This document shows positions 3,030-55,854 of a stretch of DNA of 55,854 nt, in pieces. The stretch is from positions 1 to 55,854 of the forward strand of contig NKIB01013542.1 in assembly GCA_002256025.1 (NCBI GenBank), written 5' to 3'. The stretch's first letter is position 1. Each line of letters starts with the position of its first letter. The notes under the pieces are model-generated. The model was not told the DNA's origin. It ran no database searches and worked only from the letters and a program-made list of their open reading frames with translations. This DNA is from Asterionella formosa. Taxonomy: Eukaryota. The position numbers and the translations under genes are program-made.

Positions 3030-3397
3030 GTTGTTGGCAGAACTCAGTTCCTTAGTTAAAGAATGAGCGATTTGTTGTTCAGAATCATGATTCTCTCTAT
3101 TACCCTACGCATCATGGAGTTACAACGAATGATGTTGATTTCATCAAAATCTTCACATGTAACAGCAGGAGTATACCGGTATACATATTATGCATTTTTC
3201 TTATGGATATTTATTTGTAAATGCACCGGTAAAGATTTATATAGAATTATTTTATGTAGAATTTAATTTGCTTCATGCCTCAATATTTATAAATGCAGGT
3301 GAATCATAAAAGAACAACATCACACCCTGTTCTATTTTTATACATACAGATATACTGTATTTACGGATTCTTTCCGGGTAGACTGAATTCACTTTAA

Positions 3398-4770
3398 GTC
3401 CCTGCATTTGAACCCTAGGCAAAAATTAAAATATTGCTTAGGGTTGCCGAAATTCCCTGGAACTAAGAACTTTTATGTGCTAATTTGAATATCAATGATT
3501 CCGTTTGAAATATTCAAATGAGTGGAAATTTGCGCGTACGTACATAGATTCCTTTTCGAATTCGCTAAAAAAATATATAAACATTCTACATTGCTACATG
3601 TATATATAGTAAGAACCTACACCGGTAATACGATCAACATATATGTGGCATACAAGCTGGCAGCATCATGGCAAATACTTTTGTTGATAACTACCGGTAA
3701 GAAACAAACAAACACAACAATCCACCATGAGCGAAATTTCACATTACAACAATGACAATGGCAATGACGAATTTAACTACAGCCATGACAGTTGTCCTAC
3801 CTGTCAAGACCGGTTGACTGTAGTTTTGGCTGTGGAGGGATGTGAGGATCACATCTTCTGCAAATACTGCGATTTTGGTTGCCCCAAATGTCAGTGCCAA
3901 TGGGATGCAGTCGAAGAGTTGGTGGAAAAGTTCTTGGAAGGTGAATCCATTCTCAGCAGAGTGAAGGATGAAGACATAACGGCATCAAGAGCCCGCAATC
4001 TTCTATACAAGTGTTTAATCAGAGTTTTCTGTGGTCCATTGGGAAAAGGTGTTCGGATGCAAATTCCTGACTGTTGTTTGAAGGGGGTTTGATCTCTTTT
4101 GAAGAACTTGGACACAAACGAAGAGTACACTGGCTTCGAACCTGTTTCTAAATGCTCTAAATCTAGCTAGTAGTGATCAGTTTTTTTATTATTTTCATTC
4201 ATTTCAATATATTTATCACTTCAATGCGCCTACATATGTCGGTTCAAAATCCTTTAGAAGCAAGTGAGGTGGCATGTATTCTTCGACTTTCTCTATATAA
4301 TTTTTTAACATTGTTCTATAGTTTAATAGTTTAACCCATCAATAGTAACAACAAACAATATAGACAACAACATCAACATGCCACGCACTACTAGTGGTGG
4401 CCGTCTCGTTTCCGAAATTGGAACTGGTGGACATTAGGTCGAAATGTCATCAGCGATGAAAATCAGAATTGGTGGTCATTGTCATCAGCATCCTCACCCC
4501 CTCTCCCCACAATTAAAGCGACTAAACAACAACAGAAACAACTACCACCTGAACAACAGAAAAGGAACCACTTTATCGACTGTAATTCATTCACCAGATT
4601 GTTGAATGACAATGTGATTTGCAAGAGTTGTGTAAATGCATATGTCAAAGAATGTTGTAAACAAGCAGTACAAGAAACCCTAACCGAAATTTCCAGTCTT
4701 TTTAGCATAGTAAAAAAACCGAAGTTCCTTTCTGCAGTATCTCGACAGATCCTATGTATATCCTGACGAG
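3398..4770 (+). mobile_element. Decayed TTAA-flanked DNA transposon left end, Kolobok-like; right end not found
   Basis: Begins right after TTAA (3394-3397). 3398-~3675 is homologous to 33697-~34240, which also begins right after TTAA. It carries two degraded ORFs (3727-4170 and ~4378-4766). Confidence 0.5.
3727..4170 (+). pseudogene. Cys-rich ORF with a P2X7-ballast/ZCD (KolX-like) C-terminal motif, interrupted by TGA at 4090-4092
   Basis: Reading through the stop gives RARNLLYK...GPLGKGVRMQIPDCCLKGV*SLLKNLDTNEEYTGF, resembling the LGKGxRxxIPxCxxxxIRxxFP...YTGF consensus. The stop falls at the conserved Arg position (CGA>TGA). Confidence 0.55.
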
Positions 4771-12667: not shown

Positions 12668-13451
12668 GCTGTTTTTGCTACGATGTACTGTGAAGAAGGA
12701 AAAGGGAGAGAGATAGAGGGAGTTTGACGAAGCAAAAGCAGTTGGATGACCTGAACAATGAGGTACAAAACTGATGCAAGTGTGTCTGTGCGTGTGTGCA
12801 AATGTGATGATGATATTCAAACCATGATAGTATAAATATGATTACCGGTAGGATTTTTACCATCACTCAATTGCCGGACTCCTAAACCGGTACGAGTATG
12901 ATTTATTTAACGCTGACTCTGATCAAGCATTATCTCGCTCAGCCTTGCTTTCTTATACCTCCCTCTGCTGGTGGCTGGTGAAAATGCGTATGGTACCTGG
13001 TACCAGGTAGCAGGTTGTCTACCGGTAGACTACGGTATCTTACATATTTACGGACATTTTTGCAAGCGGTATGTCGGATCATGAGGATCAAACAAGTGAG
13101 ATGCCATATTCCTTGCAGGCATCGTTTGACGAAAGCAAACAAGAAAAAGAAGGTGCCACTGCCTGTCGTTCTGTCATCAATCGCGCTCTTCTATTCATGC
13201 ACAGCGCGTACCTGTTACATTTGTTACGGTAGTACCAGGTACCTGGTACTGGTACCAGGTAGAGATAAAGAATGTATCAATGGTAATACCGTAGTGGTCA
13301 GATCAATTCCATCCTCGCCAACAATACATAGTAAGGTCACTACTCACCACCAGCCACTGTTCATTTCAGAATCCCATCACTTCCTCTTCTCACCACTGAT
13401 TAAGAAATACGTTAAAGCTTTGAAGCCGGAGTGAACAAGAGAAGATTAGGA

Positions 13452-22344: not shown

Positions 22345-24000
22345 GATCTCCACTCTGATCAATGCCAAGTCATTTTTGAAGGTCTACACCTGCAACTTCG
22401 TCCTTGACACTGCAAACTTTTTCTTCGTCCTGTTGTCCTTCTCTGTATCTTGGGAAGACACGCCATTGCTTCGCAAATAATCACTTTCTCATCTTTCTGG
22501 TTGGGTTGAGCGTAATGGGTCTCGATATTATAACTCATTTATATAACGCCTTAGTAAGACTACACTGAGCGCTTCCTGGAATTTCCAGTCTGGGCCTCCC
22601 GTATCAACCCAACAAATGTGGTGACTTCTGGTGTTGGCACATGGGGAATTTTTTGGGTGAGTTGCACTGGCTCCCTTGCTTGAAGGGGTAAAGGATGCAA
22701 AGTGGTGCTTGATATGCTGAAGTTCATTCTTTCGCCTCATCTGTGATGAGTGAAGAAATTGGATGTCTTTCATTGTTGTGCTTTTTGTGGGTTTTTGGGT
22801 CACACTGATAGTTGCCGGGAACCCTCTTGGTGCCTGTGGATGCTGGGATAAAACTTGTTGAGAGATAGTTGACCATTGTTTGAAAGTTTTTCTTCGAAAT
22901 CATTAACAGAAAGTCAGCTTTTTCCGGAAATCTTCTTGTTGTGCCGCTTCTGAGTTTGAGCAAATTTGAAGTGGGTGCTGACATAGGTGTGAATCTCTGA
23001 CACAGATCAAGTGTTTTTGCTGATACATTTTTGTAATACGAACATACATATATGCGATTGGACGAAGTGTGAATTCTTTTCCTGGTGTAATACTGTTCCT
23101 TTCCTCGTGTAATACTGTTCCTTTCCTCCCGTGCCTTGGACGCCAGCGGAATGGGTCCTAAATGACTGTTATAGGGAAAGTGATCAGGGTAGGAATGCAT
23201 CTACCCAGAGAACATTGCAAATGTTACGATACAGTCCTTGAAAGTACTGGATAAGCCAGAATAATTTGTAAATCGTATCCTATATTACTATGGCTGATGC
23301 TTACTATCTATAGCTGGCTGGGTGCATCATGAAACTAAATTGGGCGGGTAGCTACCAGCCAGTACAACATAATTTTAGCTTAAGTAAAATGTTCTATAAA
23401 AAACATTCAAAAGAATAAATTTTTTGTATACATGCATCCGCAATCTCGTTGTTGCCATTGTTGAGTTCATTCGCTCACTTCGATTTGTCCATGGCACAGC
23501 AATGGATGCGAAATCGTTATAGTTGTTTAGTTGTAACTACTATAGCTAGGACCATATTTGAGACAGTCCTGCACAGTTTCAGCTCCAGCTTTCCCACTAT
23601 CAAGAGCTCTACCACATGAACAAGCCATTAGTCATGTAGGCGTGAATCTACGTGCCCAACACAAAATAGTGTATAGATAAACCAAATCGTTCCTCCCGTG
23701 CCGCTTCGTCCTATGTTCACTAGTAGCGCTGCTCATGGCGGAGATAAGGCTATTTGAAGCGGCGCGGAAGGTTGTTCTGTTGTTGAGTAATAACGACATG
23801 GTGAATTTAATTGCAGCATGCCAATTAAGGCGCAAAATATTACAAACAATAGGTTCAGTGTTTATGCTAATACTAGGAGGCCTATGGGGTCCATCCGGTG
23901 CCCCCAAAAATTGCATTCAGCCGTAAGTGCAACCAATAATAATCCCTTCAGTTGTATCCGACCAGCTGAAGGATTCAAAATCTGTGGTATCAGAATAAAT
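22345..24000 (-). mobile_element. Second, longer, inverted copy of the foldback family, with its arm split by an insertion
   Basis: 22345-22525 is the reverse complement of 21130-21315. 23200-23310 plus 23924-24000 match the arm at 21355-21545. Confidence 0.6.
23311..23923. mobile_element. Non-autonomous TA-targeting (Tc1/mariner-type) insertion
   Basis: Interrupts the arm sequence ATCTA|AGTGCA with TA on both sides (23309-23310 and 23924-23925). Short imperfect terminal repeats TGGCTGGGTGCA / TGCATTCAGCCG. Confidence 0.6.
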
Positions 24001-24479
24001 TAATTTATTAAGTACAATGACAATGACAGCAGCGATGAAAATTTTTAATGTTGATGATTTAAAAAAATTGTAGAAGCACCTAGGGTAGCCCGCATTGCGC
24101 TTCCTGGCATTGACAGACTAGCTTAGATTCAGTTCTTAACCATCCCAGTATCAACACAACCAATAGGGTAACTTTGGGCACTACAAGGCGGGAAAACGGT
24201 GGGTAAACAACTCTATCACATGAGAGTAGGTGGAAATTCTCATGCAGTATGTGCATGATTCTGGCATTGATAAATCAATCTGTCCCCCTTTCTTTACATT
24301 AGAGGAGAAACAAGTAACTTGGTTTGAACTTTAAGCAAAGCATAGTGTATTGGCCTCTCTTTTGACCGCCTTGCTCTTCTTGGTAAAAATGACAGACTAT
24401 GATATTATTGGGCAGCTTTAAGATCTCTTGGTGTTTGGATCAAAATGGAATGTGTTATCACCATCAAGACACTTATCAA

Positions 24480-30378: not shown

Positions 30379-30598
30379 AGAAATTGGATACTATAAAAAG
30401 TAGATGGATTTGAATCACAAATTTGATTTTCCCCCACACTCCTTGTGGAGTTTGAATGCCTTACTTCACTTTTTCCATTCTCGTCTTCAGAAATTGGATA
30501 CTATAAAAAGTAGATGGATTTGAATCAAAAATTTGATTGTCCCCCACACTCCTTGTGGAGTTTGAATGCCTTACTTCACTTTTTCCATTCTCGTCTTC
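30379..30598. repeat. Near-perfect 110-bp tandem duplication
   Basis: 30379-30488 and 30489-30598 differ at two positions. Confidence 0.95.
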
Positions 30599-31807: not shown

Positions 31808-33696
31808 TTTTCTGTTTCGAAGTTGATCAGTGAAGGAGATAACGTGATTGGGATGAGGAAGTGTTACGAATTGTGAGCACACGTGGGGCCTTCGAGACTT
31901 TTTTCGTTGTCACTCCCCGTACACATTTAGTACTACCGGTATATGCAGAGTAACAATCAAATAATAGTCATCGATGTAATAGACAATAATATACATGTAA
32001 ATGCATCCACCCAACTTACGATAATAGCTGTTTATATGATGTGCACTTAGAACGAGAAGATATGCTATCAATGACATCGGAGCTCTTAAAACAAACCAGA
32101 ATGTCTGCTTATCAGTAATGCCAATGACCATATTGATGCCCTTTAATTGCACTGCCGAAACGGTTGTTCATTGATATAGATGTAGGCAATATCTTGTAAT
32201 TTTAAGTGATTTAGAATAGATCCCATTAGTCATAATGCCACCAACTGTAGGGAATTCCAACCATCTGGGATGATTTGTGAGTCCATATATAGGGTGCATA
32301 GTGTTTGAAGTTGTCATTCATTATGGCTGAATTTCTCCCGCTGCATAGCTAGGAGACATTCATGATTTATGTCTGCATGGGGACACAGATAAAATAGTTC
32401 CTCACAAATAAAATACCGTCATCAGTGTGACCTGATGAACGACTACGCATTTACTCCGAGTACCGGTATGTAGCAGGGAAAGAGGAAAGCTAAGTATCTT
32501 GTACGAGGTACTAGTAGGAGACGACTCATGAAATGTGGCGGTTTGTTCAACTTTGAGCTATCAAATTGGATGGTTTCATGCGTCATCCTTCTGTTCCGTT
32601 TCATACGGTTACATGGAATAGAACATACCCATAAATGACTGAGTATCGCAGCGATGCAAATTCGCGACGTCTATGTAAAGCTCAACATGCCAATTAAATG
32701 ACTCCGGAATATACACTTCTCTATTTTTAGACTACAAGGTGTATTGTTAATGTCGATCTGGTAAATGACCTGGTACTACTTTACCGGTAGTCTGACTTCC
32801 AGTTCCAAGGTGACGTACCTGGTACCAGGTACCGGTACCTGGTACATTGAATGTCCGATAATGCCAACACGGAGGCATTAACTCTTGGAGTACCTAATAG
32901 TGCTGTAACTATAGTACCTGGTACCGGACTGACAAACATGGCTGCACAAAAAGGTCATAACATGCGAAAAAGTCATGACCTCATAGACATATTATATAAT
33001 AATAAGCATTGGCCAATACGAAGAACCGGCAGTACCTGGTACCTGGTACTGAGTAGCAGGGTAACCAACAAAAGTAAACACGATGTAGTATTAAAAACGA
33101 TGAGTCATGACTGCATGGACATTATACACAGGAAAAGGATTAATGTTATGTGCATATAAGCATACATCTGCTGAAAGCGGTATTCCTAGCTTCCTAGCTA
33201 TGTTCTGAACAAAAGCCCATTGGGGTTGTGGAAACAGCCTAAGAAATGGGGAAAGCAAGTGACCCCCCCATTCATGCGGCCTTTGCCGCCTAGACAACCT
33301 CCGGAATAGTCATTCATTCCTGCTCCATACTCTTGCCTGGACGGCTCAGTAGCGCACGTTTTATGCGCTCTTATTCAGTTTCGACTCACTCCCAATGATT
33401 CGTCCGATGCCTTTTACCGGATTAGATAGATTGGCTTTCCATTCCTCTCTATGATGTTAAATTATCATTCATTAAATCCATGTCGTGTTCACCTACTGCT
33501 ACCTGTACTGGCATTCACCAACTTGAAGACGGTTTGCTTATAAGGTTCACCAATGAGTAATTTCTAGTCTTAGTCAGCAATTTCTAATCGTGGTTGTCAG
33601 CAGATTTCTAGTCTTACGTAGTCACCAACGGGATCAGTACAGGTAATCGTAAACAAAAGAGTCATTTTGAAAATGTCAATGGACTACCGGAATTAA

Positions 33697-34240
33697 GGTT
33701 CCTGCATTTCAACACCCTACATAGGAAAAAATTAAAATATTGCTCAGGGTTGCCGAATTCCCTGGAATTAAGAATTTTATGAGCTAATTTTGAATGACAT
33801 GATTCCATTTGAAATATTGTTTAAATCAATGGAATGGGGAATAGCTTACCAGGTAGCTGGTTAGCTCACCTTCCAAGGTGGCGGGTTCGATTCCCGCAGT
33901 CTCCACCTGCTTTGTTTATGTGGTCCCTAGGGTTCCGGATGGTGAGGCAGACAACAAGCAGGTCTACACAAGGCACTTTGGGGGCCAAGTGCAACTTCAC
34001 AACCTCCACAATTGTCGAGTTCTTTAACAATAGTGCATGCACTATAAAATTTACTTCATAATTTTAAATCTTTTTATTTAAATCAATGGAAATTTGCACA
34101 TACATACATAGATCCCTTTTCGAATTCTCTAAATCTGAATATAAAGATATATAAACACATTCTACATCGCTCGATGTATAGTCTATATACCCTATAATAT
34201 GATCAACATACATGTGTCATAGTACAAGCTGGCAGCATGG
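33697..34240 (+). mobile_element. Second copy of the TTAA-flanked Kolobok-like left end, interrupted by a SINE
   Basis: TTAA|GGTTCCTGCATTTC..., colinear with 3398-3675. Confidence 0.65.
33835..34076 (+). mobile_element. tRNA-derived SINE-like retroposon, copy 1
   Basis: Exact 15-bp target-site duplication TTTAAATCAATGGAA (33820-33834 and 34077-34091). tRNA-like head with B box GGTTCGATTCC and an AT-rich tail. It is absent from the paralogous site at ~3513-3527. Confidence 0.85.
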
Positions 34241-34999
34241 CATTATATTACTAGTACTGGTATGCATGTGGTACCAGGCAGGTAGTGGATACAGTTCTGG
34301 CAAACAACCCAAAAAAGATACATGTGCATCAAGTTTGCAAGGCCCTGCAGATCAGGCCAATCAAATCTAGGTAAGTAATTCAGATTGGCCAATCATATTA
34401 TATCCGGATGCGCACTTACAATGGAATTTGTTGGACAAAGCTGAAACAGATAAGTCAAATGAATCTTGTTTGTATCTCCAAAATCAGCCCAGTCGTGATC
34501 TTTTGAGTCTAGTCATGAACATGAATCAATCTTTACTCATATATGAAGCAATCTTTGAGTCTGCCTTGCCATAGTAAACATGAGTCGATTTACTCATTTA
34601 TGACTTAATTTTGTTGGTTTGGTTTGCTAAAAGTTAATTCTATAAGCTCACTTTATTTGGAAATATCAATACTAGAGTCAAATCTATCTACCAACAATCT
34701 CCTAAATTCACCATGATCCTTTGGTCCACTGCCTACTAGCACCTATGTTTTTGCTGAGTATATCAATATTTACTATTTTTCAATAAGTCGAACTCCTTTC
34801 AGGTTGATCTATGACTTCTCTTTCAAGTGACACCAGGAGATTTTAGGACAAAAAATTCCGCCACATGACTACTATTCTAATGTTGACATTTCGGCTCATA
34901 GTCATTCTGATTCCGATATTTTGGAGACTGTAGAAAAGGCCGATTTTTTGAATTTTTGGACAAGCAAAAATAGCTCAACATTGGCTTGGTCTGAAGGCG

Positions 35000-36650
35000 A
35001 TTTCAATTGATAATGTGTTTCATAGCCCATTTGTACTCCCCCTTTTCAAGGCAAGTATTAATTGTGCTGCCTGCTGACAAGATCTGTGCTTGTTCCCTAG
35101 TTGTGTTAGCGTAGGTGAGTCCCCAACCACATTTCGTGAAATTTGACCCCCTTGGCCACAGCGTTAGAGGAAACTCCAACATCCTAGGAAGGCGGCACAA
35201 CCTGATATGTTCAAAATAGGAAAGCGTCGCTCTCAATTTTCGTAGAGATTTCCGATAGCCTGTATTTTTTGCTAACTAACCTGCTTGTGTATTTTATAAC
35301 TTAGACTCTTCAATACTGGACTAAATTCATCTGTGTGCCTGTTCCTCCAAATCGAGATAGCTCTTTGTTTGTGTATGCCGGTCTATACTCCGAAGTTGTG
35401 GCCTTCTCATGACCATCTACAAAATAGTGTTTTGCTCTGATTTTGTACCTGAATCCAACAAGCAATATGCATCCAGCGTACTATTGTAGACATGGATATA
35501 CACTTTAAAACATATCTCCTAAGACAAATTCCTTTGTTGCTGCTGTCGCGAAAATTTCCCCGAAATTGTTGTTGTTTGTTGTAGTATCATCTTCAAATCC
35601 TTGCCCAAGACTCTTCATTGTAGCTGGTATCAAGCTCTCATGCAAATAGCAATGCTTCAAATCTATGGACAGCTCCTTCAAGTGACACACTCTGTATCAT
35701 TTAGCATCCATAGCATCTGAGTGCTCCCAGAAATATGTTGGAATTGATTTCTTGAATGAAGGTGCCTTCAAGAAGAAAGTATCATCACATCTTGTAACAA
35801 TTCGACGATGCCATCGCTATAAAGATCGCCAGTTTGTGTAGACTTCGATACCAACATTGTTCATTTCACTAATAGAGTGCATGATGAAATTTTGTGGCCA
35901 TGTCCATCTCATTCCATTGTGTGCTTCATTAAAAAACTTGTGTAGTGCAACCACCAAATACATGCACCTTTGTCAAATGACAAAAATATCATTTGAGCGC
36001 TGCATATGTTTTCCTTGTCCCCTTCCTCTACATCAAGTTTCCAAGTGCTTGAATTCCAAGTAGTTCAATTCTTTCCACGAAGATTTTCTTCACATTGTAA
36101 CTATTGCTCTATGACAATATTCTTCACATTGCAACTATCGCTGTATTTTTCAGATGGCGCAAAAAGAAGCCGGGCATCGCCAGAGGTCCACCAGGAACAT
36201 GTGGTTGATTGTTCTCATTAAGTGAGTTGGAACAACAAGACTCATCTGCTATAACATCAATATCCTTGCTTTGTCAACGAAATTGAAAGTTCTTTAATTG
36301 GTGGTGGGATTATCATTTTTCCTCATCAACATTGTTGAAATATCATCAATGACGCACTACATTGTCACCCCTCCCCCTACACACTTGCTTTGTAACATAC
36401 GTATCCAACCAGCCAAATAATGCTTTCTTTCCAGATGAAAACTCAGGCATGTCTTCTCCTTCCATTGTCAGGTACAGAAACTCACTCCGACCACTTCCTT
36501 TCTCACGATAACCATGCCAGCCAATACATGTCAACCAGAACATTTTCCGCCAGAACCACTTTATTTGCCTCTCTTCCTCCTGTCTTTCTGTGAATTTTAA
36601 AAACAGTTCATGTCAGCATGGCCTTGGTGAACTTCATGTCATCTTCGACA
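35000..36650 (-). pseudogene. Decayed transposase-like gene (probably IS630/Tc1/mariner-related), with many stops and frameshifts
   Basis: Remnant ISMSTIVRWMH / GFRYKIRAKHYFVDGHEK (35403-35456) resembles the LGFxY...KxxYVDGHE motif I associate with eukaryotic DDE transposases. Confidence 0.45.
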
Positions 36651-37323
36651 TTAAATCTAATTGTATGGCTGTGGTCACACAAGAACTCAATTGGAATCCA
36701 TTTCAGCCGGTAGGAACTTTCTGCGCAAATAGTTTTAAAATAGCTCAAAATTAACTGAGAATGCGAGGAGCCCTCGCAGATCCATCAACTTATTCTTTAA
36801 ATCCAGACTGTTGAGATACTCAAACCGGAGTTGGATCCGCAAGATCGCAATAAGGTACAAAGAAAAGCGACGGTCAGAGATGGCCCTTGTACTAATGGCA
36901 AAACAACAAGCATTTTTACGCGCTATTTTATATTTTAGAAGGGTTAGGGTTATGCGTTGTACTAGGTACACAAGCCTACATGATACATTAAATCTAAGGT
37001 GTATGTGGTCACGCAAGAGCTCTATTGGAATCCATTTCAGTCGGTAGGAACTTTCTGCGCAAATAATTATAAAATAGCTCAAAATTAACTGAGAAGAATG
37101 CGAGCCCTCGCAGAGGATCCATCGACTCATTCTTTAAATCCATACTGTTGAGATACTCAAACCGGAGTTGGATCTGCAAGATCGCAATAAGGTACAAAGA
37201 AAAGCGACGGTCAGAGATGGCCATTGTAATGGCAAAACAATAAGCATTTTTGCGCGCTATTCTATATATTTTAGAAGGGTTAGGGTTATGCGTTGTACTA
37301 GGTCTACACAAGCCTACATGATG
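36649..37323. repeat. ~335-bp tandem duplication, each unit containing GGGTTAGGGTTA
   Basis: 36649-36984 and 36985-37323 align throughout with small indels. Confidence 0.92.
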
Positions 37324-37399: not shown

Positions 37400-37710
37400 T
37401 GTAGGTCAAACCAAATCTCGTTTGATTCTCTATTTAAGTAATGTCAATTGAAAGTCCATTGACATTTCCAAAATGACTCTTTTGTTTATGTTTGCTGATC
37501 CAGCTGGTGACTACATGTGACTAGAAATCTGCTGACAACGACTAGAACTGCTGATGTAGGTCAAACAAAATCTCGTTTGATTCTCTAGTATTTAAGTAAT
37601 GTAAATTAAAAGTCCATTGCCATTTTCAAAATGACTCTTTTGTTTATGATTGCTGATCCAGCTGGTGACTACATGTGACTAGAAATCTGCTGACAACAAC
37701 TAGAACCTCT
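37400..37710. repeat. ~155-bp tandem duplication at the inner edge of the right inverted arm
   Basis: GTAGGTCAAAC.AAATCTCGTTTGATTCTCTA...AGAAATCTGCTGACAAC occurs twice. Confidence 0.88.
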
Positions 37711-38235
37711 TACAATGATTAGAATTTGCTGACTACAACTAGAAACTGCTGACTAACAGGTACAATTGGAAATTGCTGACTATGACTGGAAGTTACTGAT
37801 TGGTGATTCCATTAGCAAACCGTCATCCGGTTGCTGAATACCATTAACAGAAGTAGTACTAGGTGAACACAATTTCAATGATGAGAACACAACTTGGATT
37901 AAATGAATGATAATTTAACATTGAAGAAAGTGACTTAAGAGAGTTTGGAATGAAAAGCCAGTCTACCTCATCTGGCAGGCATGAGACAATCCATTGGGAG
38001 TGCGTCGAAACTGAGAAGGTGCGCATAAAACGCGAGCTACAGGACCTTCCAGGACAGCCGAGTGAGTAGACTACCCTTACAAATACCACAGTGACAGCAT
38101 TAGAAGCAGTTCAGACAGAAAATTTTGTCACAAGGCAGGAACCAATGATTACCACAATCAAGGCCATGATGCAAAACAAAACCCCAAGCTTGCATGACAC
38201 TGCTTCTAGGATCGATAATATTTATTATGAAATTT

Positions 38236-43600: not shown

Positions 43601-45034
43601 TCACTTCTCAGCACATAAGAATCGAACCCCTTTGTGTCGCAGACCCGATGTGTTTTGCTTTCGCTCTCGCTCTTTCAACAATGTCACGTCCCTCTTGTCC
43701 TTTTGCACCACTTCACTGAGTTGCACCAACGTTTTATAGTGTTCAGTCAAAACGCTTGTCAATATTGTTTTATCCGGCAAATCTATATCCTGAAGTATAG
43801 GAGGTTTCGCGTTCCGCACTGAGTCCAACATGGCGCCGACTTGTTTTATGTGACGTCGCATGGCCACAAGTCGTTCCATCGCATTGATTTCTTCATCCTG
43901 AAATGGTATATTCATGCATCTGACTATTTCAACCTTTCTCATAGTTTCTAATAGGCGCCTGTTAAGGCCCATATGAATGCGTACTAGGGCCGCGAGTTCT
44001 TCCTTGTATTGCTGCACTCGTTGTTCCACGCTAGCTCTTGTTGCTTCCAACAGTTCAACTCCTTGGTGCAAAGAATGAGCGCGCTCTTGTTGCCACCCCA
44101 AGCGAGCCTGAAGGGCTTCAGCGCCGACCAAAGCCATGGGAAGGTAGAGGGTAGGATTTGGATTGCGAACCACCGCATTCAACCAGTCCTTCTCTGAAAC
44201 CTGTGGAGGTTTCGGAGGGATGGCCAACGAGCCTGCCTGGGAGTGTGCAAAGTGCCACTGGAGCTGTTCGGGAGTCATGTCATTGTAAACAATACTCACA
44301 AAAGGGGAACTTTCGCTAGAAGAATTAGATACGCCATTGTACGAGTTGTAGAGGCTTTCCAGGGAACTTTGTATCTTAGCTGCTTCCTGACGCGCCGAGG
44401 CATCGGCGTGGGCTTGAAGCGCTGCTTGCGCAGGTATTTGGTATTGCTGTGGAGCAGGTGTTGGCGTCCCAAACAGACTACTTGGAGCTGGGGCAGGCGC
44501 TCCAAACAGACCACCAGTTGCGGGTGCTGGAGCTCCAAACATTCCACCACCACCAGGTGCTGGCGCTCCAAATAGACCACCAGTAGCGGGTGCTGGAGCT
44601 CCAAACATTCCACCACCAGCAGGTGCTGGCGATCCAAATAGACCACCAGTTGCGGGTGCTGGAGCTCCAAACATTCCACCACCAGCAGGTGCTGGCGCTC
44701 CAAATAGACCACCAGTAGCGGGTGATGGAGCTCCAAACATTCCACCACCAGCAGGTGCTGGCGTTCCGAATAGACCACCAGAAGTAGCTGGTGGTGGTGC
44801 TCCAAAGAGTCCACCAGTAGCAGGTGCAGGTGCAGATGCCCCAAAGAGACCGCCACCAGCAGGTGCCGGTGATCCGAACATACCACCACCAGAAGAAGCT
44901 GGTGCTCCAAATAGGCCACCAGAAGCAGGTGCTGGAGCTGATGATCCAAAAGCCAACGGGGTTGTTGCTGAGCCAGCAGCGCTGTTAGAACCTCCCGGAA
45001 CGGAAAAGACTTGATTTGGTCCCCATGAAACCAT
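43601..45034 (-). CDS. NUP54: FG-repeat nucleoporin Nup54 (Nup57-like)
   Basis: N-terminal GGLFG/GGMFG repeats, followed by W..AVVRNPNPTLYLPMALVGAEALQARL..Q and a coiled coil, as in the Nup54 family. Confidence 0.82.
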   Translation of the reverse strand: MVSWGPNQVFSVPGGSNSAAGSATTPLAFGSSAPAPASGGLFGAPASSGGGMFGSPAPAGGGLFGASAPAPATGGLFGAPPPATSGGLFGTPAPAGGGMFGAPSPATGGLFGAPAPAGGGMFGAPAPATGGLFGSPAPAGGGMFGAPAPATGGLFGAPAPGGGGMFGAPAPATGGLFGAPAPAPSSLFGTPTPAPQQYQIPAQAALQAHADASARQEAAKIQSSLESLYNSYNGVSNSSSESSPFVSIVYNDMTPEQLQWHFAHSQAGSLAIPPKPPQVSEKDWLNAVVRNPNPTLYLPMALVGAEALQARLGWQQERAHSLHQGVELLEATRASVEQRVQQYKEELAALVRIHMGLNRRLLETMRKVEIVRCMNIPFQDEEINAMERLVAMRRHIKQVGAMLDSVRNAKPPILQDIDLPDKTILTSVLTEHYKTLVQLSEVVQKDKRDVTLLKERERKQNTSGLRHKGVRFLCAEK

Positions 45035-45246
45035 GTTGATATTGAGTTCTTCAAAAATTCAGCTGGATGATAACAGGGAGAGACAAATAGAAAGAAAAGG
45101 AGCGGAAAGCAATGTTCGAGAAGTCGGCTGGTTTCAGTTCCATGGTCCTACTCCTTGATGGGTCGAACGTCGTTAAATCCATGTTAATTAGGAATGATAA
45201 TACCATGATGTGCCATTGTTGTTTTCCAGGCATTCCTGGTACCAGA

Positions 45247-45336: not shown

Positions 45337-47656
45337 TACGTACGATGGTACCTACAACGTGTACCGGTACCAGTACCTTTACCGGTGGACTAATAACCAC
45401 GAAGTGGACTCTCGTCAATTTTTATTTGTGTTGGATAATATTTTCATGCACCATAATTCATAAGCCAACCTTGGATGATTTTCGAGACAAAATCCTGCTG
45501 TTCTAATTTTGAATAGAATTGATTGTTAAGAACAACCATTTGTCAGCTAACAAAAGTAAATATTCGAATGGAGAGTGTTTGAAGTAATTTATATTCGTGA
45601 AGGTCAAGAACATTGAATATCTACAGATGCATTTGGAAAGTGATCCTTAATAATTGGTCATATGAATGATTACACCATAGATAAAATAAGTTGAGAATTA
45701 AGTCGGATTGGAAGGTTTTAGTTCGCTTATCTAGATAGAGCTAGCAATGCAGTCAGACTGCAAAAGAGTTTAACAAGTCTTACTACAGATAAGACTGGTA
45801 GACCAGGAGGATAGTATATCTACTAATGTATTATTCACCATCCCAGCCAGTATGAACTCTTACTGGTATTGTGAATATAAACTACCATTGTACATGCATA
45901 CTACTATGTATTTGTTATTTCCTTACAATTTTTGACCAGCTCAATTTCAAAAAATTGATCTTTTTCTTGTTGTAGACCATATTAGTCTGCATATAAAGAA
46001 AGTAGTATATTTGTAGATTACTGGAGATCTAAATTATGGACCTGCTGGTGGTACTCCCTCTGGTTGAAAATAGTTGCGGCAATTTGCAGTGGCTCAAGTG
46101 CCAAGCAGCTTATTTAAGACGGATTATGTTGAAATTATACCATTTTCTACATGAGGGTCAACTTACTCAGAAAATGCTTTTTAAGAGTTTCATAGATGTG
46201 AACATGTACTCTGTTCCTGTAATTAAATTATTAGCATCTAAAGTTTTTCTCAAAACCAGCCAGTTGAATGATCCATGTGGAAGTTTTGTGGTTACTGTTG
46301 GTAGTAAGGTCCTGTTTGTGTCTCCCTACATTAACGACAAGATAACTGGTGAAAAAAGGCTATTCAAGTCAAGATGAAGAGCGCAAAAGCTCCAGGAACA
46401 ATGTATGTGTGTTGTGGGATAGATACCTCACCAGTTCAATCACAGGAAACTTTGGAAGGGCTCGTAATCATGTTGGCAGAAGTGCTGCGGTTTTGGAGTT
46501 GCTCCAATACAATTCCAGTAACCCAGAAAAATGGCGCATGGATATTCAAGGATATGGAGTCGTGGGAACTTTTGCAAATGCATGAGGACCCATTCTTCTT
46601 CGAACCATCTATTCTCAACATACCAATAAACTAGGATATGATAGTAGAATAACGGCAACTTGCCTTTGATTATGTATTGCGCAACCATGAAAGTGGCGAG
46701 GAAGGGAAAGGAAAAAACGATGCTATGCTTATTTTGATGATGCGAGCCATGAAGATCAGGCGTTATAGTCAATTTAAATGTAAGAACCATAGAAATTCTA
46801 TGAAATAACTGTGCTTCTTTCTTGGTTTTTTTATCACATTTTCTAGGTTTTTAATCAGAATTATAATAGTGACATGTATTATTCTGTTTCCCGTAAATAT
46901 TTGAATGGTCGTCGGCTGATGACGCAAAACATGCCCAGCCAAGAATTTAAACAGCATATCGTGGTGATATGTAAATGCACACAATAAATGCATTTAGCAT
47001 ACTCAACTGGTTTCGATTAATTTGTTTAGACACGAATAATTCAATTAGCAATTCAGAGTTCATATTCACGTCTATGTAACTCAGTAAAAACGTCTTTTTC
47101 GAGTCATAAACCGACCCTCACGTCGAGATTTTGTATGTGCCTACGTAATCCGTCCTAACTATAAGCTGCTCGGCACTTGAGTCGTGTGAAATCGATGCAA
47201 GTGTTATTAGACAGACGAGAGTATGGTCTAGTACTTTTTACCAGTACAAGGTTTAAGCCTGCCTATAGCTAGTATGTTCCTACATATACTGTAGTGACTG
47301 GTACCCTGGTACCAGCCAGGAGTACTCAGGGGTGGTAGGAACAGAGGTCGCTGAAAGTATACTGCCGTGTTGGATATTAAGCACCAGTATCAGTATGATA
47401 CCAGCATCATGCTGTCATTTCATTTTCGAAATACCATACTGTTTTAGAATTTTACCAGTATACTGATCAAGCTTGCCAGTTTACTGCTAAGTATGAATCT
47501 TACAGAAAATCCTACATGTCTTGTAAAGGATTGGAGTACGAATTCCTCTTCGTGCATACATCATAGGCTAGGAGCACCAAAATTAGTAGATCAAAACCAG
47601 CATAACATCATCACATCATCACTAAAACTACCACAAAAACTAAAATTGCGCAACCT

Positions 47657-47958
47657 GGTGGATTGCTTAGTTGATGGTTAGCACGCCTTCATAGGTGATG
47701 GGTTTGATTCCTGCATTCTCCACCTGCTGTCTTGTTTCTTTTTCCTATAGTCCCTAGGACTCCAGGGGAGCAGCTGATGAATGAAAAAGAAAGGTTCCCA
47801 TTGTACCGTACGGACAACTAAAAATGGTACAGATCCCCATGCACCAGCGCCCAAAGTCACCATATTTGTTGAGATGACCCTGGATTGGTACGAAAGTACA
47901 TTAGTACATGAACATCTTAACAAAGAAGCGCTTAATATAAGTGAGATTAAATTTTTTG
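47657..47958 (+). mobile_element. tRNA-derived SINE-like retroposon, copy 2 (diverged)
   Basis: Head GCTTAG...GGTTAGCACGCCTTCATAGGTGATGGGTTTGATTCCTGCATTCTCCACCTGCT aligns with copy 1. Flanked by AA(T/G)TGCGCAACCT at 47644-47656 and 47959-47971. Confidence 0.65.
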
Positions 47959-49239
47959 AAGTGCGCAACCTTGGCAACCTCATTGTGGCATCAACTCTCT
48001 CAAGATTAACCAAAGAAACATGGTTGTCAGAGATGGTGGATGATCATTTGATTAACATGATAGTAGAACCAATGAACTAAACTACCCCTACCATGATTGT
48101 CTGCTGCATCCTAGGGTTCTTCGTCAACAAAAAAATCGCGCGTGTGATGGTAAGAATAAGAAGTGTGGTACGCTTTGGTAGCAGTATCAGTATTCCGGTA
48201 TGTACAGGTACTTACACTGTCATTTCCATATTAGAGTACTTTACTGTCCGGTAATTGAATACGGTATACCAGCATACTGTCGTTCTCAAAATATAGCCCG
48301 CAGTAGTTGAAACATATAGAGATTCCTGATTCCAGATCAGGTTAAGAGAGTGTCAATATATTTTCGTCTCTAGTGACCTGATTAGGAACATGTACCACAA
48401 TCCACTAGATGATTGATTCAAGGACTCATGGTTAAATATCGCGTTTAAAATGCCACAGTTGAGAGAGGAACTTTCAGGAGAAGTTCTCTGTAACCTTTTA
48501 AATGGACTCTAGTAGAAGGCGATCAGACCTAGAGGCCAAATCAACAAATGATTGACTAGACAATTACAGATATGTTGTCCGCAAAATCAAGGAACATTAA
48601 AGAAGCAAGAAACTAGATATGATTAACAGGATCATTCTGTAAGCAGTCTTCGATCAAACAGCATCTGGCCTAAGTTGAGACAGGCCAAGATTAAGACAAA
48701 TGTGTATTTAGGAAGAGGATGATGTAGTTTTTTCTCAGTTCAAGTTGGGAACACAAATGAACCTCGCCTCCAAAGATCACCTCTATTTTGAAACATGCAT
48801 GAGCTTGGAAGTTTCAAAATTATACATTCAAATATACATTTACATTAAGCTCACTCTTTTCTATAAAAGCAACTATTAGCAAACAAAGTAAAACAAACGA
48901 ATTGTGTAGAAACATTTTTCTAGCAACTTTTACTGCGTGAGAGCTACAGATACGTAGCATCGACCGACTGCAGTACAATATTATTACTGGAGTATAATGT
49001 AAACGACCAATGGGTAATAGGAGTAGTCTACCAGTAGCTCTTATTAATTACCAGTAGCACCTGCAGCCAACTCTTTTGCTGTCTCCCTTGTCAGCGGTCC
49101 CCTTCCAACATTCCTTAAGGACTTCATACCAGGAAACACTGTTTTTGATTCTAGACGATCAATCTGTGTTTTCGCCTTTCACTTTTTCCTTGATCATATA
49201 GGGTATACCGGTACCAGGGTAGTCAAATTCGAAGTTAAC

Positions 49240-50700: not shown

Positions 50701-52142
50701 CATTCCGTTCTGTAAACAACTTGCATCCTGTATAATTGAACAGAGTTAGTAGTTGTGGTAAACCCATTCAATAGCAGGATCAGGCAGCTATACCATGATG
50801 TTACAAGCTTTGCACTTATTCCTGTCTACAGTCCTCCCTTACATGCTCTTACCTGGAGTAGCTTCTGCTATTCATTGGTAACTTTCCTAGCTTGATGACT
50901 ATTATCAACATTTCTTCTTAAATTCTCACTGAAAATGATTACTTGATGTTATAAGCTTCTTAATAACTCTTATTTCAATCCCATCCTTGGCATTGCACAT
51001 CACACTTTGAGAAAAAATTCTCTAGTACTCTCTGTTGACAAGAACCTTATTTCCATTGATTTGAATAGTTAGTTGCATTAGCATGTTACTTGACATTCCA
51101 ATAGTCCATTTGATTCATAAGACTAAAATTTAGTCCACAAGCCTTATGACTTATGATTGCCATTGATACTATATTCTTGGCAGCTTATAATTACCATCAT
51201 TGCTTTGTGTTTTGGATGGGAGCAGGTGTCAATTTGAATTGCTGTGCGGTAGAGTTTATCCTGTAGCTTGTCTTGGCTAAGTATAACTATTGTGCATTAC
51301 ATCAGCCAGTTGCAACGATACAGTAGGTGCTTCCACACAGGAGAGCAATGCTGCCAACAGTCGGATGTTTACCAGATAGTGTGTCTATGTCCATATAATG
51401 GGGTGTCATGCAAATCAGGTGATCAATTGATTTCTTATCATGAACAAGAACTTTTATGGTATGGTGTTGGCATTCAAGAAAGTGACTCCTTAACCTGTCA
51501 TTAAGAGTCACTGGCACTAGATGAAGGTTGTTTAATGTTCCTGCATATAGTTATTTGTTGTTTTATTGTATTTCCCAATGAAAACAGGAATGCAGATCAA
51601 TTTGCTTTCGATTTTCTTTGCTGTGAATTTTTTGGTGTTGACCCAAATTCTTGAAACCAATAGCACGCACACTCTGACATTTGATGTGTTCCATCTGCTA
51701 TAATGCATCTCGCCTTGGTTGCTACAAGCGGGGGTATATAGACAGAATTCTTGGCAAACAAATGGATGATTGAGTATCAGAAGACATGATTGGAAACTCT
51801 GTAGTTGGTTATGGCATAAGACTAATTTTCCATTTCTCCTCAGTCTGGTGACTGCAATGCAAGCTGCCAATCTCTAGACAAGCACGCTCATGAAAATTAA
51901 AAATTCTGATCTAATCCCACATGAAATGAGTACGAGTCCACTGTAGCTGCTACCGTTATGGAACTACAATATTACATATTATACCCCATTCACTACTCAT
52001 CCCAATGAGAACGTCTCAGTCATTTGCATGAACCTTTCATAAATCAGAACAGTGATGAGTATGTGTGCTAGCTACAAGCCGATTAAATTAAAGGTCTGCT
52101 AAAGTAGGTATCTGAAAGAAATGTGAATGATAGACCACTCCA

Positions 52143-55088: not shown

Positions 55089-55854
55089 ATACCATCACCT
55101 CTAATAGCTTTGTCATGAAATGAAATCCCTTGTTGTACCTCCCCACTTTTCTAGTAATATGCATGTTAACATGCAAACCATGAAACTACTAGGAGATAAA
55201 ATAGTTAATAACAATTGAGGTACTAAACAAGCAATGTAAATACTAAAGACATTGCAAATTTCAAAATTTCAATGAAATTATCTAAACACACAGTAGTGAA
55301 TGCCCACCAGTGCAACAATCTTTTATCAGATGCATGAGTATGTATGTCACTGTTTGGTCTTGGCCATATGGCTCATAAATTCGGTCTATTGCTGTGTTTG
55401 CAGGAGTAGTATCACCAGCACAAACTAGCATTGCAACTGTCTCCCACAGAATTTAGCACCAGCAGTAAATAAATTTCAGTCTACTCCTTTCAACCCTTGT
55501 AAATAGCCTTTCTGGCTTTTGCCCTCCAATCCCAACCTCCCATTCCTGTCAAAGAACAACTAGCATCTTTGGTGTCTTAGCCACTACTATTGTACTAGAC
55601 TGGATCAACAGCCATTTTACTTTCCAAATCGTTTTACTTTGGGTTAAAGTACTGAAAGACTATTTAGGTTTAAGCAAATGATGGAATCTAATTTAATCAA
55701 GACAACGTTAAGCAATATTTTTCTTAAACTTTGTAGACAAGCATGCACAGTCCTTAATTCATATGTAGATGACTGCATGTGTCACTACAGAAGGAAAGAG
55801 ATTTACCAGCATTAGTCTACTGGTACTATGTTAACAATATGCTGGTAATAACAG

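What the first reader, a model, noticed from the sequence alone, without database searches (positions are those of the whole stretch)
33820..34091. tRNA-derived SINE with a perfect 15-bp target-site duplication and an empty-site paralogue in the window
Seen: a 242-bp insert flanked by TTTAAATCAATGGAA, while the sister repeat at ~3513-3527 has only one such site. The head has an A box (after removing a 7-nt insert), a CACC-TTCCAA-GGTG hairpin reminiscent of tRNA-Gly(TCC), a T-arm GCGGG-TTCGATT-CCCGC and an acceptor-like pairing TGGGGA/TCTCCA. The body contains a perfect 16-bp palindrome ATAGTGCATGCACTAT (34030-34045) and ends in an AT-rich tail. Established: a Pol III tRNA head with variable-length duplications defines SINEs mobilised by LINEs. 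To my knowledge SINEs are scarcely described in diatoms, so this may be a new family.
Basis: partly seen in the sequence, partly recalled or inferred. Interest (0 to 1): 0.75.

Follow-up and report, generated by a model that had tools for sequence, protein, structure and literature searches.

The report
High-copy tRNA-derived SINE in a diatom
The 242-base insert is a real copy of a short "copy-and-paste" jumping element built on a tRNA-like head, present in hundreds of copies in a freshwater diatom, a group where such elements have so far only been listed by automatic pipelines.

Summary
A 242-bp insert (33835-34076) is flanked by a perfect 15-bp duplication, and the paralogous repeat at 3394-3666 has that site once. 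The head (33836-33905) is tRNA-like: it gives the only tRNA-clan Rfam hit in the window (E 6e-5), folds as a cloverleaf (z -3.9) and has an exact B box. No tRNA finder calls it at normal thresholds. A second, older copy (47657-47958) has its own 13-bp duplication (12/13). Contigs of three DNA runs pile up on the element at roughly 130-550 times single-copy depth, with unrelated AT-rich 5' flanks. At least 61 contigs of the host repeat run straight across the empty site. The element has no terminal inverted repeats, no poly(A) and a T-run at its 3' end. The best reading is a Pol III SINE moved by an unidentified non-LTR element. The partner LINE, Pol III transcripts, and Repbase, Dfam and SINEBase could not be checked. 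tRNA-Gly origin and a conserved palindrome are not supported. The "7-nt insert" in the A box is private to this copy and is a TACCWGGTA micro-insertion.

The parts
33820..33834 (+). Left target-site duplication TTTAAATCAATGGAA
   Evidence: Exact copy of 34077-34091. It extends to 17/18 if 33817-33819 is included.
33835..34076 (+). SINE copy 1, 242 bp
   Evidence: Bounded by the duplication. Two contigs of run X2 with unlike upstream sequence begin to align exactly at 33835 (table 8, records 19 and 20). No terminal inverted repeat joins its ends.
33836..33905 (+). tRNA-like head: acceptor GGGGAAT/AGTCTCC, enlarged D arm, 5-bp anticodon stem with a 6-nt loop, no variable loop, T arm, discriminator A, then CC
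   Evidence: Rfam tRNA-clan hit 33836-33908. Cloverleaf MFE, z -3.87. ARAGORN calls it only at -ps80.
33847..33853 (+). 7-nt insertion TACCAGG at a TA site inside the A box, private to this copy or subfamily
   Evidence: In 32 X1 contigs the letters directly before 33854 end in GGGGAATAGCT, so 33847-33853 is absent from them (table 7). It forms TACCAGGTA, one of 24 TACCWGGTA sites in the window against 0.25 expected.
33884..33894 (+). B box GGTTCGATTCC
   Evidence: Read from the sequence. Matches the Pol III B-box consensus GGTTCGANNCC, which is recalled from established knowledge.
33906..34029 (+). tRNA-unrelated body
   Evidence: Covered by many contigs at 80-99% likeness in X1, X2 and X6. 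Subfamilies replace or skip about 33907-33983 (tables 2, 5, 5c, 8).
34030..34045 (+). Perfect 16-bp palindrome ATAGTGCATGCACTAT in this copy
   Evidence: It is variable in the family: 2-nt deletions at 34034-34039 in 4-13 X1 contigs each, and T>C at 34034 (tables 3 and 4). As an RNA hairpin it is weak, -4.8 kcal/mol, z -1.5.
34046..34076 (+). AT-rich 3' tail without poly(A), with T4 (34062-34065) and T5 (34071-34075) runs, ending TTAAATCTTTTTA
   Evidence: Copy 2 ends TTAAATTTTTTGA. The 3' loose-end consensus of other copies continues ...ACTATAAAATTTACTTAATAATTTTTA (table 7).
34077..34091 (+). Right target-site duplication
33693..33819 (+). Left half of the host repeat (R2) into which the SINE inserted
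   Evidence: 84% identical to 3394-3514. Summed contig depth is up to 1.29 million in X1.
34092..34238 (+). Right half of host repeat R2
   Evidence: 34075-34238 matches 3511-3666 at 76%.
3394..3666 (+). Paralogous R2 copy with the unoccupied site (3513-3527)
47644..47656 (+). Left duplication of copy 2, AATTGCGCAACCT
   Evidence: 12/13 identical to 47959-47971, including an exact 10-mer.
47657..47958 (+). SINE copy 2, 302 bp, older and diverged. It starts with GGTGGAT, which is acceptor position 1.
   Evidence: blastn 81% over 63 bp. nhmmer E 2.3e-10. Global alignment is homologous to the 3' end. The 3' local score is 44.5 against 31.4 +/- 4.5 for shuffles, and 6 of 500 shuffles reach it.
47959..47971 (+). 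Right duplication of copy 2, AAGTGCGCAACCT

Best explanation
33835-34076 is one copy of a tRNA-derived SINE family of a freshwater diatom. Proposed mechanism: a source copy is transcribed by RNA polymerase III from the internal A and B boxes of its tRNA-like head. Transcription would end at the T-run that closes the element. The roughly 235-nt RNA would then be copied into a staggered nick at an AT-rich target by the endonuclease and reverse transcriptase of an autonomous non-LTR retrotransposon (target-primed reverse transcription), which leaves a 13-15-bp duplication. Because the element ends in a conserved AT-rich, T-run tail and not in poly(A), the partner probably recognises the 3' region itself (a 'stringent' partner). 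The RTE-like family reported in Thalassiosira pseudonana is an example of that kind of LINE. Shown here: the anatomy, the tRNA likeness, two copies each with its own duplication, hundreds of copy equivalents with unrelated flanks, and unoccupied paralogous sites. Inferred: Pol III transcription, the identity and even the class of the partner, and present activity. This particular copy is probably not a source gene, because a 7-nt TACCAGG micro-insertion splits its A box.
For: 1. The 15-bp duplication is perfect, against 0.02 such repeats expected per simulated window.
2. The head is tRNA-like. It gives the only Rfam tRNA-clan hit in the window at E 6.1e-5 (E 9.9e-7 locally). It folds as a cloverleaf with z -3.87 and has an exact B box. 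Nearly all other copies read T at 33899 (614,319 of 625,291 summed depth in X1), which closes the acceptor stem to 7 of 7 pairs.
3. Both of the 2 copies in the window carry a duplication, of 15 bp and 13 bp (12/13). nhmmer finds no third copy.
4. The family is large. 4196, 514 and 412 contig pieces of runs X1, X2 and X6 were laid on the 801-bp stretch. Summed depth over 33874-33927 is 486,030-612,618 in X1, 3,477-4,547 in X2 and 1,384-1,641 in X6. The unique flank 34252-34350 has 1,109-2,194, 12.7-27.1 and 4.97. At 33899 alone, 121, 61 and 62 contigs were counted.
5. Flanks differ between copies. The 5' loose-end consensus agrees only 0.53 over 30 letters, 11 of which are the conserved GGGGAATAGCT, and the rest is AT-rich.
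6. Sites are empty elsewhere. 61 (X1), 7 (X2) and 13 (X6) contigs of the host repeat continue past 33818 with a single ...CAAATCAGTGGAAATTTGCG.... Joints 33818>34081 occur in X1 (2 contigs), X2 (1) and X6 (1). The paralogue at 3394-3666 is also unoccupied.
7. The element has no terminal inverted repeats. There is no internal T4 run before 34062, and T-runs lie within the last 15 nt of both copies.
8. The filled 3' junction is bridged by contigs of two studies: X1 record 8 (34007-34350, 0 differences) and X2 record 24 (34004-34350, 1 difference).
9. LINEs exist in related diatoms: 2,350 LINE copies in Cyclotella cryptica (PMC7466962, section 17 read) and an RTE-like family in T. pseudonana (PMC2806351, passage read).
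Against: 1. No LINE, reverse transcriptase or endonuclease was found in the window. None of 27 ORFs scanned gave such a Pfam hit, so the 3'-end match to a partner, a defining SINE feature, is untested.
2. No Pol III transcript is shown. The only RNA run laid (X19, a poly(A) metatranscriptome) has 16 pieces, all embedded in longer contigs (0.98 run on unlike sequence), which fits read-through in mRNAs or DNA carry-over.
3. The copy number rests on summed contig depth, which the tool itself says is not a copy number. In metagenomes, relatives may add to it. X1 may be the sample the window was assembled from.
4. The window copy has a disrupted A box, a 6-nt anticodon loop and no variable loop. 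ARAGORN at normal stringency and Rfam at gathering score make no call.
5. No allelic empty site at this very locus was seen among the listed joints.
6. No other copy could be fetched as sequence. There were 0 hits in metagenome, prokaryote-genome and viral contig collections.
Confidence: 0.8

Rival explanations
1. It is a tRNA-headed retroposon mobilised by a reverse transcriptase other than a LINE, for example a Penelope-like element, which also leaves variable-length duplications, or an LTR-retrotransposon enzyme acting in trans.
For: No LINE partner was found. There is no poly(A) tail. The head keeps A-CC after the acceptor stem in both copies, as if copied from a mature CCA-ended tRNA. Scan notes on this genome list copia elements, solo LTRs, Helitron-like and PIF/Harbinger-like elements but no LINE. 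That is a weak lead only, because the notes are unchecked and partial.
Against: Duplications of 13-15 bp at AT-rich sites are the usual signature of target-primed reverse transcription by non-LTR elements (established knowledge). LINEs are reported in related diatoms (PMC7466962, PMC2806351). LTR integrases give fixed duplications of 4-6 bp.
Confidence: 0.1
2. It is a non-autonomous DNA transposon (MITE-like) that happens to contain a tRNA-like segment.
For: This genome is rich in small non-autonomous DNA elements and footprints (scan notes; TACCWGGTA 24 against 0.25 expected).
Against: No inverted repeat joins the two ends. The duplication lengths differ between copies (15 and 13 bp) and are longer than those of known cut-and-paste superfamilies. 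The tRNA-like part sits exactly at one end, starting at acceptor position 1 in copy 2.
Confidence: 0.04
3. It is a one-off event: a tRNA pseudogene with downstream sequence, a segmental duplication, or an assembly artefact.
For: Only two copies lie in the window, and the second is only 81% identical over its best 63 bp.
Against: There are hundreds of copy equivalents in three DNA runs from three studies. Contigs of two studies bridge the 3' junction without, or with one, difference. Copy 2 has independent flanks and its own duplication.
Confidence: 0.02
4. It is a family of functional tRNA-like or small RNA genes kept for a cellular role and not as mobile DNA.
For: The cloverleaf fold is significant, z -3.87. 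SINE-like pieces occur in RNA contigs.
Against: The family shows free decay. There are C>T and G>A changes at the CpG sites 33888, 33895/33896 and 33936/33937, 1-3-nt indels, and replaced central segments (tables 3, 4, 5c). Copy 2's head no longer folds better than shuffles, z -0.53. This copy's A box is split.
Confidence: 0.03

Closest known systems
tRNA-derived (type 2 Pol III promoter) SINEs in general, as reviewed by Kramerov and Vassetzky 2011 (cited in PMC5859163 and PMC7466962; the review itself was not read)
   Same: Short non-coding element. tRNA-like 5' head with A and B boxes, an unrelated body and an AT-rich 3' end. Variable-length target duplications, many dispersed copies, subfamilies and CpG decay.
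   Different: It has no A-rich or simple-repeat tail and ends in a T-run. The head is about 10 nt shorter than a tRNA (6-nt anticodon loop, no variable loop) and is followed by A-CC. The partner LINE is unknown.
infSINE and other tRNA-like SINE families of the oomycete Phytophthora infestans (Whisson et al. 2005; seen only as cited, and as 'tRNA-like infSINEp insertion', in PMC3522703, passages read)
   Same: tRNA-like SINEs in another stramenopile, so the kind is known in this supergroup.
   Different: Oomycetes and diatoms are distant, and shared ancestry of the families is not implied.
'Putative SINE' annotations in diatom genomes: Phaeodactylum tricornutum (13 copies, 1,454 bp; PMC5859163 Table 2), Cyclotella cryptica (PMC7466962), Skeletonema costatum (as cited in PMC8147415) and Pleurosigma pacificum (PMC12803021)
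   Same: Same host group and same class label.
   Different: In the passages read, those are pipeline classifications without described heads, duplications or empty sites, and in P. tricornutum they are very few. Here the anatomy is explicit and the family is large. The C. cryptica repeat table (Table S6) could not be read, so identity with one of its families is not excluded.
SINEs partnered with RTE-type LINEs such as Bov-tA/Bov-B (recalled, not checked here); an RTE-like family is reported in T. pseudonana (PMC2806351)
   Same: No poly(A) tail, and a 3' end that would have to be recognised specifically.
   Different: Purely inferential. No RTE sequence was available to compare with the tail.

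Membership tests
tRNA-derived SINE | Short (under about 600 bp) and non-coding | tested here: met
   The copies are 242 bp and 302 bp. A 75-codon open frame crosses copy 1, but the family carries 1-3-nt indels and copy 2 has many, so there is no coding constraint.
tRNA-derived SINE | 5' head derived from a tRNA with internal Pol III A and B boxes | tested here: met
   Rfam tRNA-clan hit, E 6.1e-5 window-wide. Cloverleaf fold. B box GGTTCGATTCC is exact. The A box TAGCT|TAGCTGG is intact in other copies and split by 7 nt in this one. The box consensuses are recalled.
tRNA-derived SINE | Many dispersed copies with unrelated flanks | tested here: met
   2 copies in the window. About 130-550 single-copy equivalents by summed contig depth in three DNA runs, which is rough. 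The 5' flanks agree at near-random level.
tRNA-derived SINE | Target-site duplications of variable length, and unoccupied sites | tested here: met
   15 bp (15/15) and 13 bp (12/13) in 2 of 2 copies. Empty paralogous sites in the window and in 61, 7 and 13 contigs of X1, X2 and X6. No allelic empty site was seen.
tRNA-derived SINE | 3' end shared with, or usable by, a partner LINE (A-rich tail or LINE-derived tail) | not testable with these tools
   No genome is held. No RT or EN in 27 ORFs. No related contigs in the collections. The tail is AT-rich, with a T-run and no poly(A).
tRNA-derived SINE | Transcription by RNA polymerase III | not testable with these tools
   Only assembled contigs of a poly(A) metatranscriptome were available. 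All 16 pieces are embedded in longer contigs.
Known SINE superfamilies (CORE, V, Deu, Nin, Ceph and others) or a catalogued family | Shared conserved central domain, or a match in Repbase, Dfam or SINEBase | not tested
   No such library is held. Rfam has no model for it. The literature searches found no described diatom SINE family.
MITE / cut-and-paste DNA transposon | Terminal inverted repeats and a fixed-length short duplication | tested here: not met
   None of the 9 inverted pairs in 33800-34110 joins the two termini. Duplications are 15 and 13 bp.
Solo LTR | TG...CA ends and a 4-6-bp duplication | tested here: not met
   Starts TG but ends ...TTTTTA. The duplication is 15 bp.
Functional tRNA gene | Complete cloverleaf with a 7-nt anticodon loop, called by tRNA finders | tested here: not met
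   ARAGORN finds 0 genes at default, -ps and -ps95. Rfam finds nothing at the gathering threshold. The loop has 6 nt and there is no variable region.

The most novel reading that the evidence does not exclude
This is the first structurally defined SINE family of diatoms. It would be a recently active Pol III retroposon with hundreds of copies, a truncated tRNA head that keeps the CC of a mature tRNA end, and a conserved T-run, non-poly(A) 3' end that implies a 'stringent' partner LINE (possibly RTE-like) still working in a bloom-forming freshwater diatom. Its insertions would be presence/absence markers between natural populations. Its copies would also be dated reference points for the genome's stereotyped TACCWGGTA micro-insertions at TA sites.
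Probability: 0.4. Interest if true: 0.55.

Novelty: new member of a known kind. Interest (0 to 1): 0.45.

Why it matters
[quoted passage not shown] In diatoms they exist only as 'putative SINE' lines in repeat tables. A family with clear hallmarks and hundreds of copies has several consequences:

- It shows that the LINE/SINE retroposition system operates at scale in a diatom.
- It gives a handle to find the active partner LINE by matching its 3' end.
- It offers homoplasy-poor presence/absence markers for strains and populations of an ecologically common freshwater diatom.
- Through the copy-specific 7-nt insertion, it gives an ancestral-state control for the micro-insertion or footprint process that earlier notes of this scan described in the same genome.

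It is nevertheless ordinary transposon biology of a well-known kind.

Tried and rejected
1. Whole-genome search: no genome is held for this window.

2. Fetching other copies as sequence. A 29-nt degenerate head pattern gave 0 hits in metagenome contigs, prokaryote genome contigs and viral contigs. A 21-nt body pattern gave 0 hits in metagenome contigs. No family alignment, consensus, TSD-length distribution or covariation test could therefore be made.

3. Earlier scan notes. By sequence, near, relatives and words nothing was found on this element. The genome notes gave the host (a freshwater diatom) and the footprint lead, but no LINE.

4. RNA evidence. X19 has SINE-like pieces only inside longer contigs, so there is no verdict on Pol III expression. 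Parts of the stretch without RNA cover are not interpreted.

5. Allelic empty site. The listed joints 33818>34081 carry 2 extra letters and come from paralogous host-repeat copies, not this locus. 14 further joints were not shown.

6. Site at 51051-51065 (1 mismatch to the TSD): the flanks are unrelated to the host repeat, so it is a chance match.

7. Isotype assignment. Gly(TCC), Trp or Arg readings of the 6-nt loop, and an Ala-like G3:U70 acceptor, all remain possible. No eukaryotic tRNA set was available.

8. The palindrome as a 3' recognition hairpin: it is weak (z -1.5) and variable. Rejected as a family feature.

9. Microhomology. TTTAAATC occurs in the tail (34063-34070) and at the start of the TSD. 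With n = 1 this is noted only.

10. Table S6 of PMC7466962 (C. cryptica repeat classes) could not be read.

11. One overlapping ORF (44296-45054, minus strand) was left out of the Pfam scans, so 27 of 28 listed ORFs were scanned.

Full report
**The observation**

The 15-mer TTTAAATCAATGGAA stands at 33820-33834 and at 34077-34091. It is found exactly nowhere else in the window. It encloses 242 bp (33835-34076). In 100 first-order Markov simulations of the window, an exact 15-mer repeated directly within 30-400 bp occurred 0.02 times per window. With one mismatch the repeat extends to 18 nt, so the element's ends are uncertain by up to 3 nt.

The flanks belong to a repeat that I call R2. 33693-33818 matches 3394-3514 at 84%, and 34075-34238 matches 3511-3666 at 76%. 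In that paralogue the site occurs once, as TTCAAATGAGTGGAA at 3513-3527.

**The head**

33836-33905 reads as a shortened tRNA:
- an acceptor stem GGGGAAT/AGTCTCC with 6 of 7 pairs;
- a D arm;
- a 5-bp anticodon stem with a 6-nt loop;
- no variable loop;
- a T arm GCGGG-TTCGATT-CCCGC;
- a discriminator A, followed by CC.

Rfam's tRNA clan matches it through the acceptor plus T-arm part of the tmRNA model. The score is 21.9 bits, with E 9.9e-7 on a 901-base search and 6.1e-5 on the whole window. It is the only clan hit at E up to 1 in the window. Nothing reaches a gathering score.

The RNA folds as a cloverleaf at -33 kcal/mol, against -21.3 +/- 3.0 for shuffles (1 of 200 as good). ARAGORN calls nothing at default, -ps or -ps95. 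At -ps80 it calls a 'tRNA-???' at 33836-33907.

GGTTCGATTCC (33884-33894) equals the B-box consensus as I recall it.

**A second copy in the window**

blastn and nhmmer find one further match, at about 47656-47790 (81% over 63 bp; nhmmer E 2.3e-10). Its flanks carry AATTGCGCAACCT (47644-47656) and AAGTGCGCAACCT (47959-47971). These agree at 12 of 13 positions and share an exact 10-mer.

The 302 bp between them start with acceptor position 1 (GGTGGAT...). They align with copy 1 to the very end: TTAAATTTTTTGA against TTAAATCTTTTTA. The local score of the 3' parts is 44.5, against 31.4 +/- 4.5 for 500 shuffles, and 6 shuffles reach it.

Copy 2's head has decayed (fold z -0.53). So 2 of 2 copies in the window have their own duplication, and the lengths differ (15 and 13 bp).

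**The family in public reads**

No genome is held. I therefore looked for runs that hold 33300-34600. I then laid the Logan contigs of three DNA runs from three studies (X1, X2, X6) and one poly(A) metatranscriptome (X19) on 33550-34350 at 80% likeness or more. The numbers of pieces laid were 4196, 514, 412 and 16. Only 32 pieces, 24 loose-end rows and 15 joints are printed, and the rest were not shown.

| Run | Summed depth over 33874-33927 | Summed depth over unique flank 34252-34350 | Ratio |
|---|---|---|---|
| X1 | 486,030-612,618 | 1,109-2,194 | about 220-550 |
| X2 | 3,477-4,547 | 12.7-27.1 | about 130-360 |
| X6 | 1,384-1,641 | 4.97 | about 280-330 |

The tool warns that summed contig depth is not a copy number. 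In metagenomes, relatives add to it, and X1 may be the window's own sample. I therefore claim only 'hundreds'. At position 33899 alone, 121, 61 and 62 distinct contigs were counted in X1, X2 and X6.

Contigs X2-19 and X2-20 begin to match exactly at 33835 and carry unlike sequence before it. In 32 X1 contigs the 30 letters before 33854 agree only 0.53 overall. They end in the conserved GGGGAATAGCT and are AT-rich and variable upstream. Flanks therefore differ from copy to copy, and the 5' end of the family is at GGGG.

Behind 34033, 39 (X1) and 22 (X2) contigs go on with ...ACTATAAAATTTACTTAATAATT.... The tail is thus part of the family.

Several joints replace or skip about 33907-33983. One carries a 29-nt alternative segment in both X1 and X2. 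These point to subfamilies.

**Empty sites**

Past 33818, 61 (X1), 7 (X2) and 13 (X6) contigs continue with ...CAAATCAGTGGAAATTTGCG.... That is the R2 repeat with a single copy of the site and no insert. Joints 33818>34081 are seen in X1 (2 contigs), X2 (1) and X6 (1).

These are paralogous sites, not allelic ones. No empty allele of this locus was listed. The filled 3' junction is bridged by X1 record 8 (34007-34350, 0 differences) and by X2 record 24 (34004-34350, 1 difference).

**How this copy differs from its family**

Most other copies differ from the window copy at these positions (table 3):

| Position | Window base | Majority base in other copies |
|---|---|---|
| 33875 | A | G |
| 33899 | G | T |
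| 33922 | G | A |
| 33929 | A | T |
| 33939 | A | G |
| 33975 | A | C |
| 33993 | A | G |

T at 33899 makes the acceptor stem 7 of 7 pairs, with a G3:U70 pair. That pair is the tRNA-Ala identity element as I recall it, and I did not test it.

G at 33875 makes the loop TTCCGA, and copy 2 has TTCATA.

Changes at 33888, 33895/33896 and 33936/33937 are C>T or G>A at CpG sites. That is the usual decay of methylated repeats.

The palindrome at 34030-34045 is perfect here. In the family it carries 2-nt deletions (4-13 X1 contigs per position) and substitutions. It is not palindromic in copy 2, and it is a weak hairpin (z -1.5). I do not treat it as a functional family feature. Palindromes of 16 bp or more are in any case over-represented in this window (7 against 0.95 expected).

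**The 7-nt insert**

The other copies lack 33847-33853 (TACCAGG). The insertion sits at a TA site and creates TACCAGGTA. TACCWGGTA occurs 24 times in the window against 0.25 expected, and 0 of 100 shuffles reach 24.

Earlier notes of this scan on other pieces of the same genome describe stereotyped 6-7-nt insertions at TA sites and read them as transposon excision scars (e1-7565380, e1-7548063). Those notes print the motifs only as '[letters]', so I cannot confirm that TACCWGGTA is the same motif they describe. Here the SINE family supplies the ancestral state, so this is a directly polarised example of such an insertion. It also splits the A box, which in the other copies reads TAGCT followed directly by TAGCTGG. 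This copy is therefore probably transcriptionally dead.

**What it is and how it works**

The anatomy is as follows:
- a tRNA head at the exact 5' end;
- an unrelated body;
- an AT-rich tail;
- no terminal inverted repeats;
- no coding constraint;
- 13-15-bp duplications at AT-rich sites;
- hundreds of copies with subfamilies.

This is the anatomy of a tRNA-derived SINE. Inferred steps are Pol III transcription from the A and B boxes, and termination at the T-run. The first run of four T is at 34062, 15 nt from the end, and copy 2 ends with T6. Target-primed reverse transcription by a non-LTR element is also inferred.

The absence of poly(A) and the conserved 3' end suggest a partner that recognises the 3' region. 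An RTE-like family is reported in T. pseudonana (PMC2806351, passage) and LINEs in C. cryptica (PMC7466962, section 17). None of 27 ORFs scanned in the window has an RT or endonuclease domain (27 of 28 listed ORFs were scanned). The partner therefore stays unknown.

The RNA run shows SINE-like pieces only inside longer contigs, so it says nothing about Pol III transcripts.

**Comparison with what is known, and novelty**

Full-text searches and passages read show that SINEs in diatoms are reported only as pipeline classes:
- 13 'putative SINE' copies (1,454 bp) in P. tricornutum (PMC5859163, Table 2);
- unspecified numbers in C. cryptica (PMC7466962);
- S. costatum, as cited in PMC8147415;
- P. 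pacificum (PMC12803021).

tRNA-like SINEs are known in another stramenopile, Phytophthora infestans (Whisson 2005, as cited in PMC3522703). I found no description of a diatom SINE family's structure in these searches.

Repbase, Dfam, SINEBase and the C. cryptica supplement could not be consulted. Sequence-level novelty is therefore untested.

Verdict: a real and well-supported SINE family, a new member of a known kind, and of moderate interest.

Noticed in passing
33847-33855 (and 23 other sites, for example 12994-13009, 13233-13261, 32816-32844, 33033-33048): TACCWGGTA occurs 24 times against 0.25 expected. The one inside the SINE head is a 7-nt insertion at a TA site relative to the other family copies. 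That gives a polarised example of the TA-site micro-insertions noted elsewhere in this genome.
   Followed up: partly
33693-33819 + 34092-34238; 3394-3666: The host repeat R2 (about 270 bp) is itself very abundant. Its left part has summed contig depth up to 1.29 million in X1 against about 1,100-2,200 for unique flank. Its class is unknown, and it contains an internal inverted repeat CCCTAGGCAA...TTGCTTAGGG in the 3394 copy.
   Followed up: partly
33336-33685 (+); 37453-37554 and 37611-38053 (-): A third repeat, R1, ends at 33685/33686 directly before R2. In other genomic copies that end is followed by variable A/T-rich sequence (loose ends at 33686 in 37, 17 and 22 contigs of X1, X2 and X6). 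It could be the 3' end of another retroposon or of a LINE. No ORF with a Pfam hit lies in it.
   Followed up: partly
12994-13009, 13231-13250, 32815-32845, 23994-24009, 55160-55175: Perfect palindromes of 16 bp or more occur 7 times in the window against 0.95 expected. Most are built of GGTACC and CCWGG units.
   Followed up: no
30379-30488 / 30489-30598; 36648-36984 / 36985-37322; 37400-37548 / 37555-37706: Three local tandem duplications (98%, 90% and 93% identity) lie in the repeat-rich intergenic stretch around the SINE.
   Followed up: no
33888, 33895-33896, 33936-33937: Across family copies the commonest minority changes are C>T and G>A at CpG sites (table 3). This is consistent with cytosine methylation of this repeat family.
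   Followed up: no
33834-34061 (+): An ATG-started open frame of 75 codons spans almost the whole SINE copy. It is probably chance, because indels in other copies break it.
   Followed up: no
33820-33827, 34063-34070, 34077-34084: TTTAAATC occurs in the element's tail as well as at the start of both duplications. This may be microhomology between the nicked target and the RNA 3' region, or chance in AT-rich DNA.
   Followed up: no
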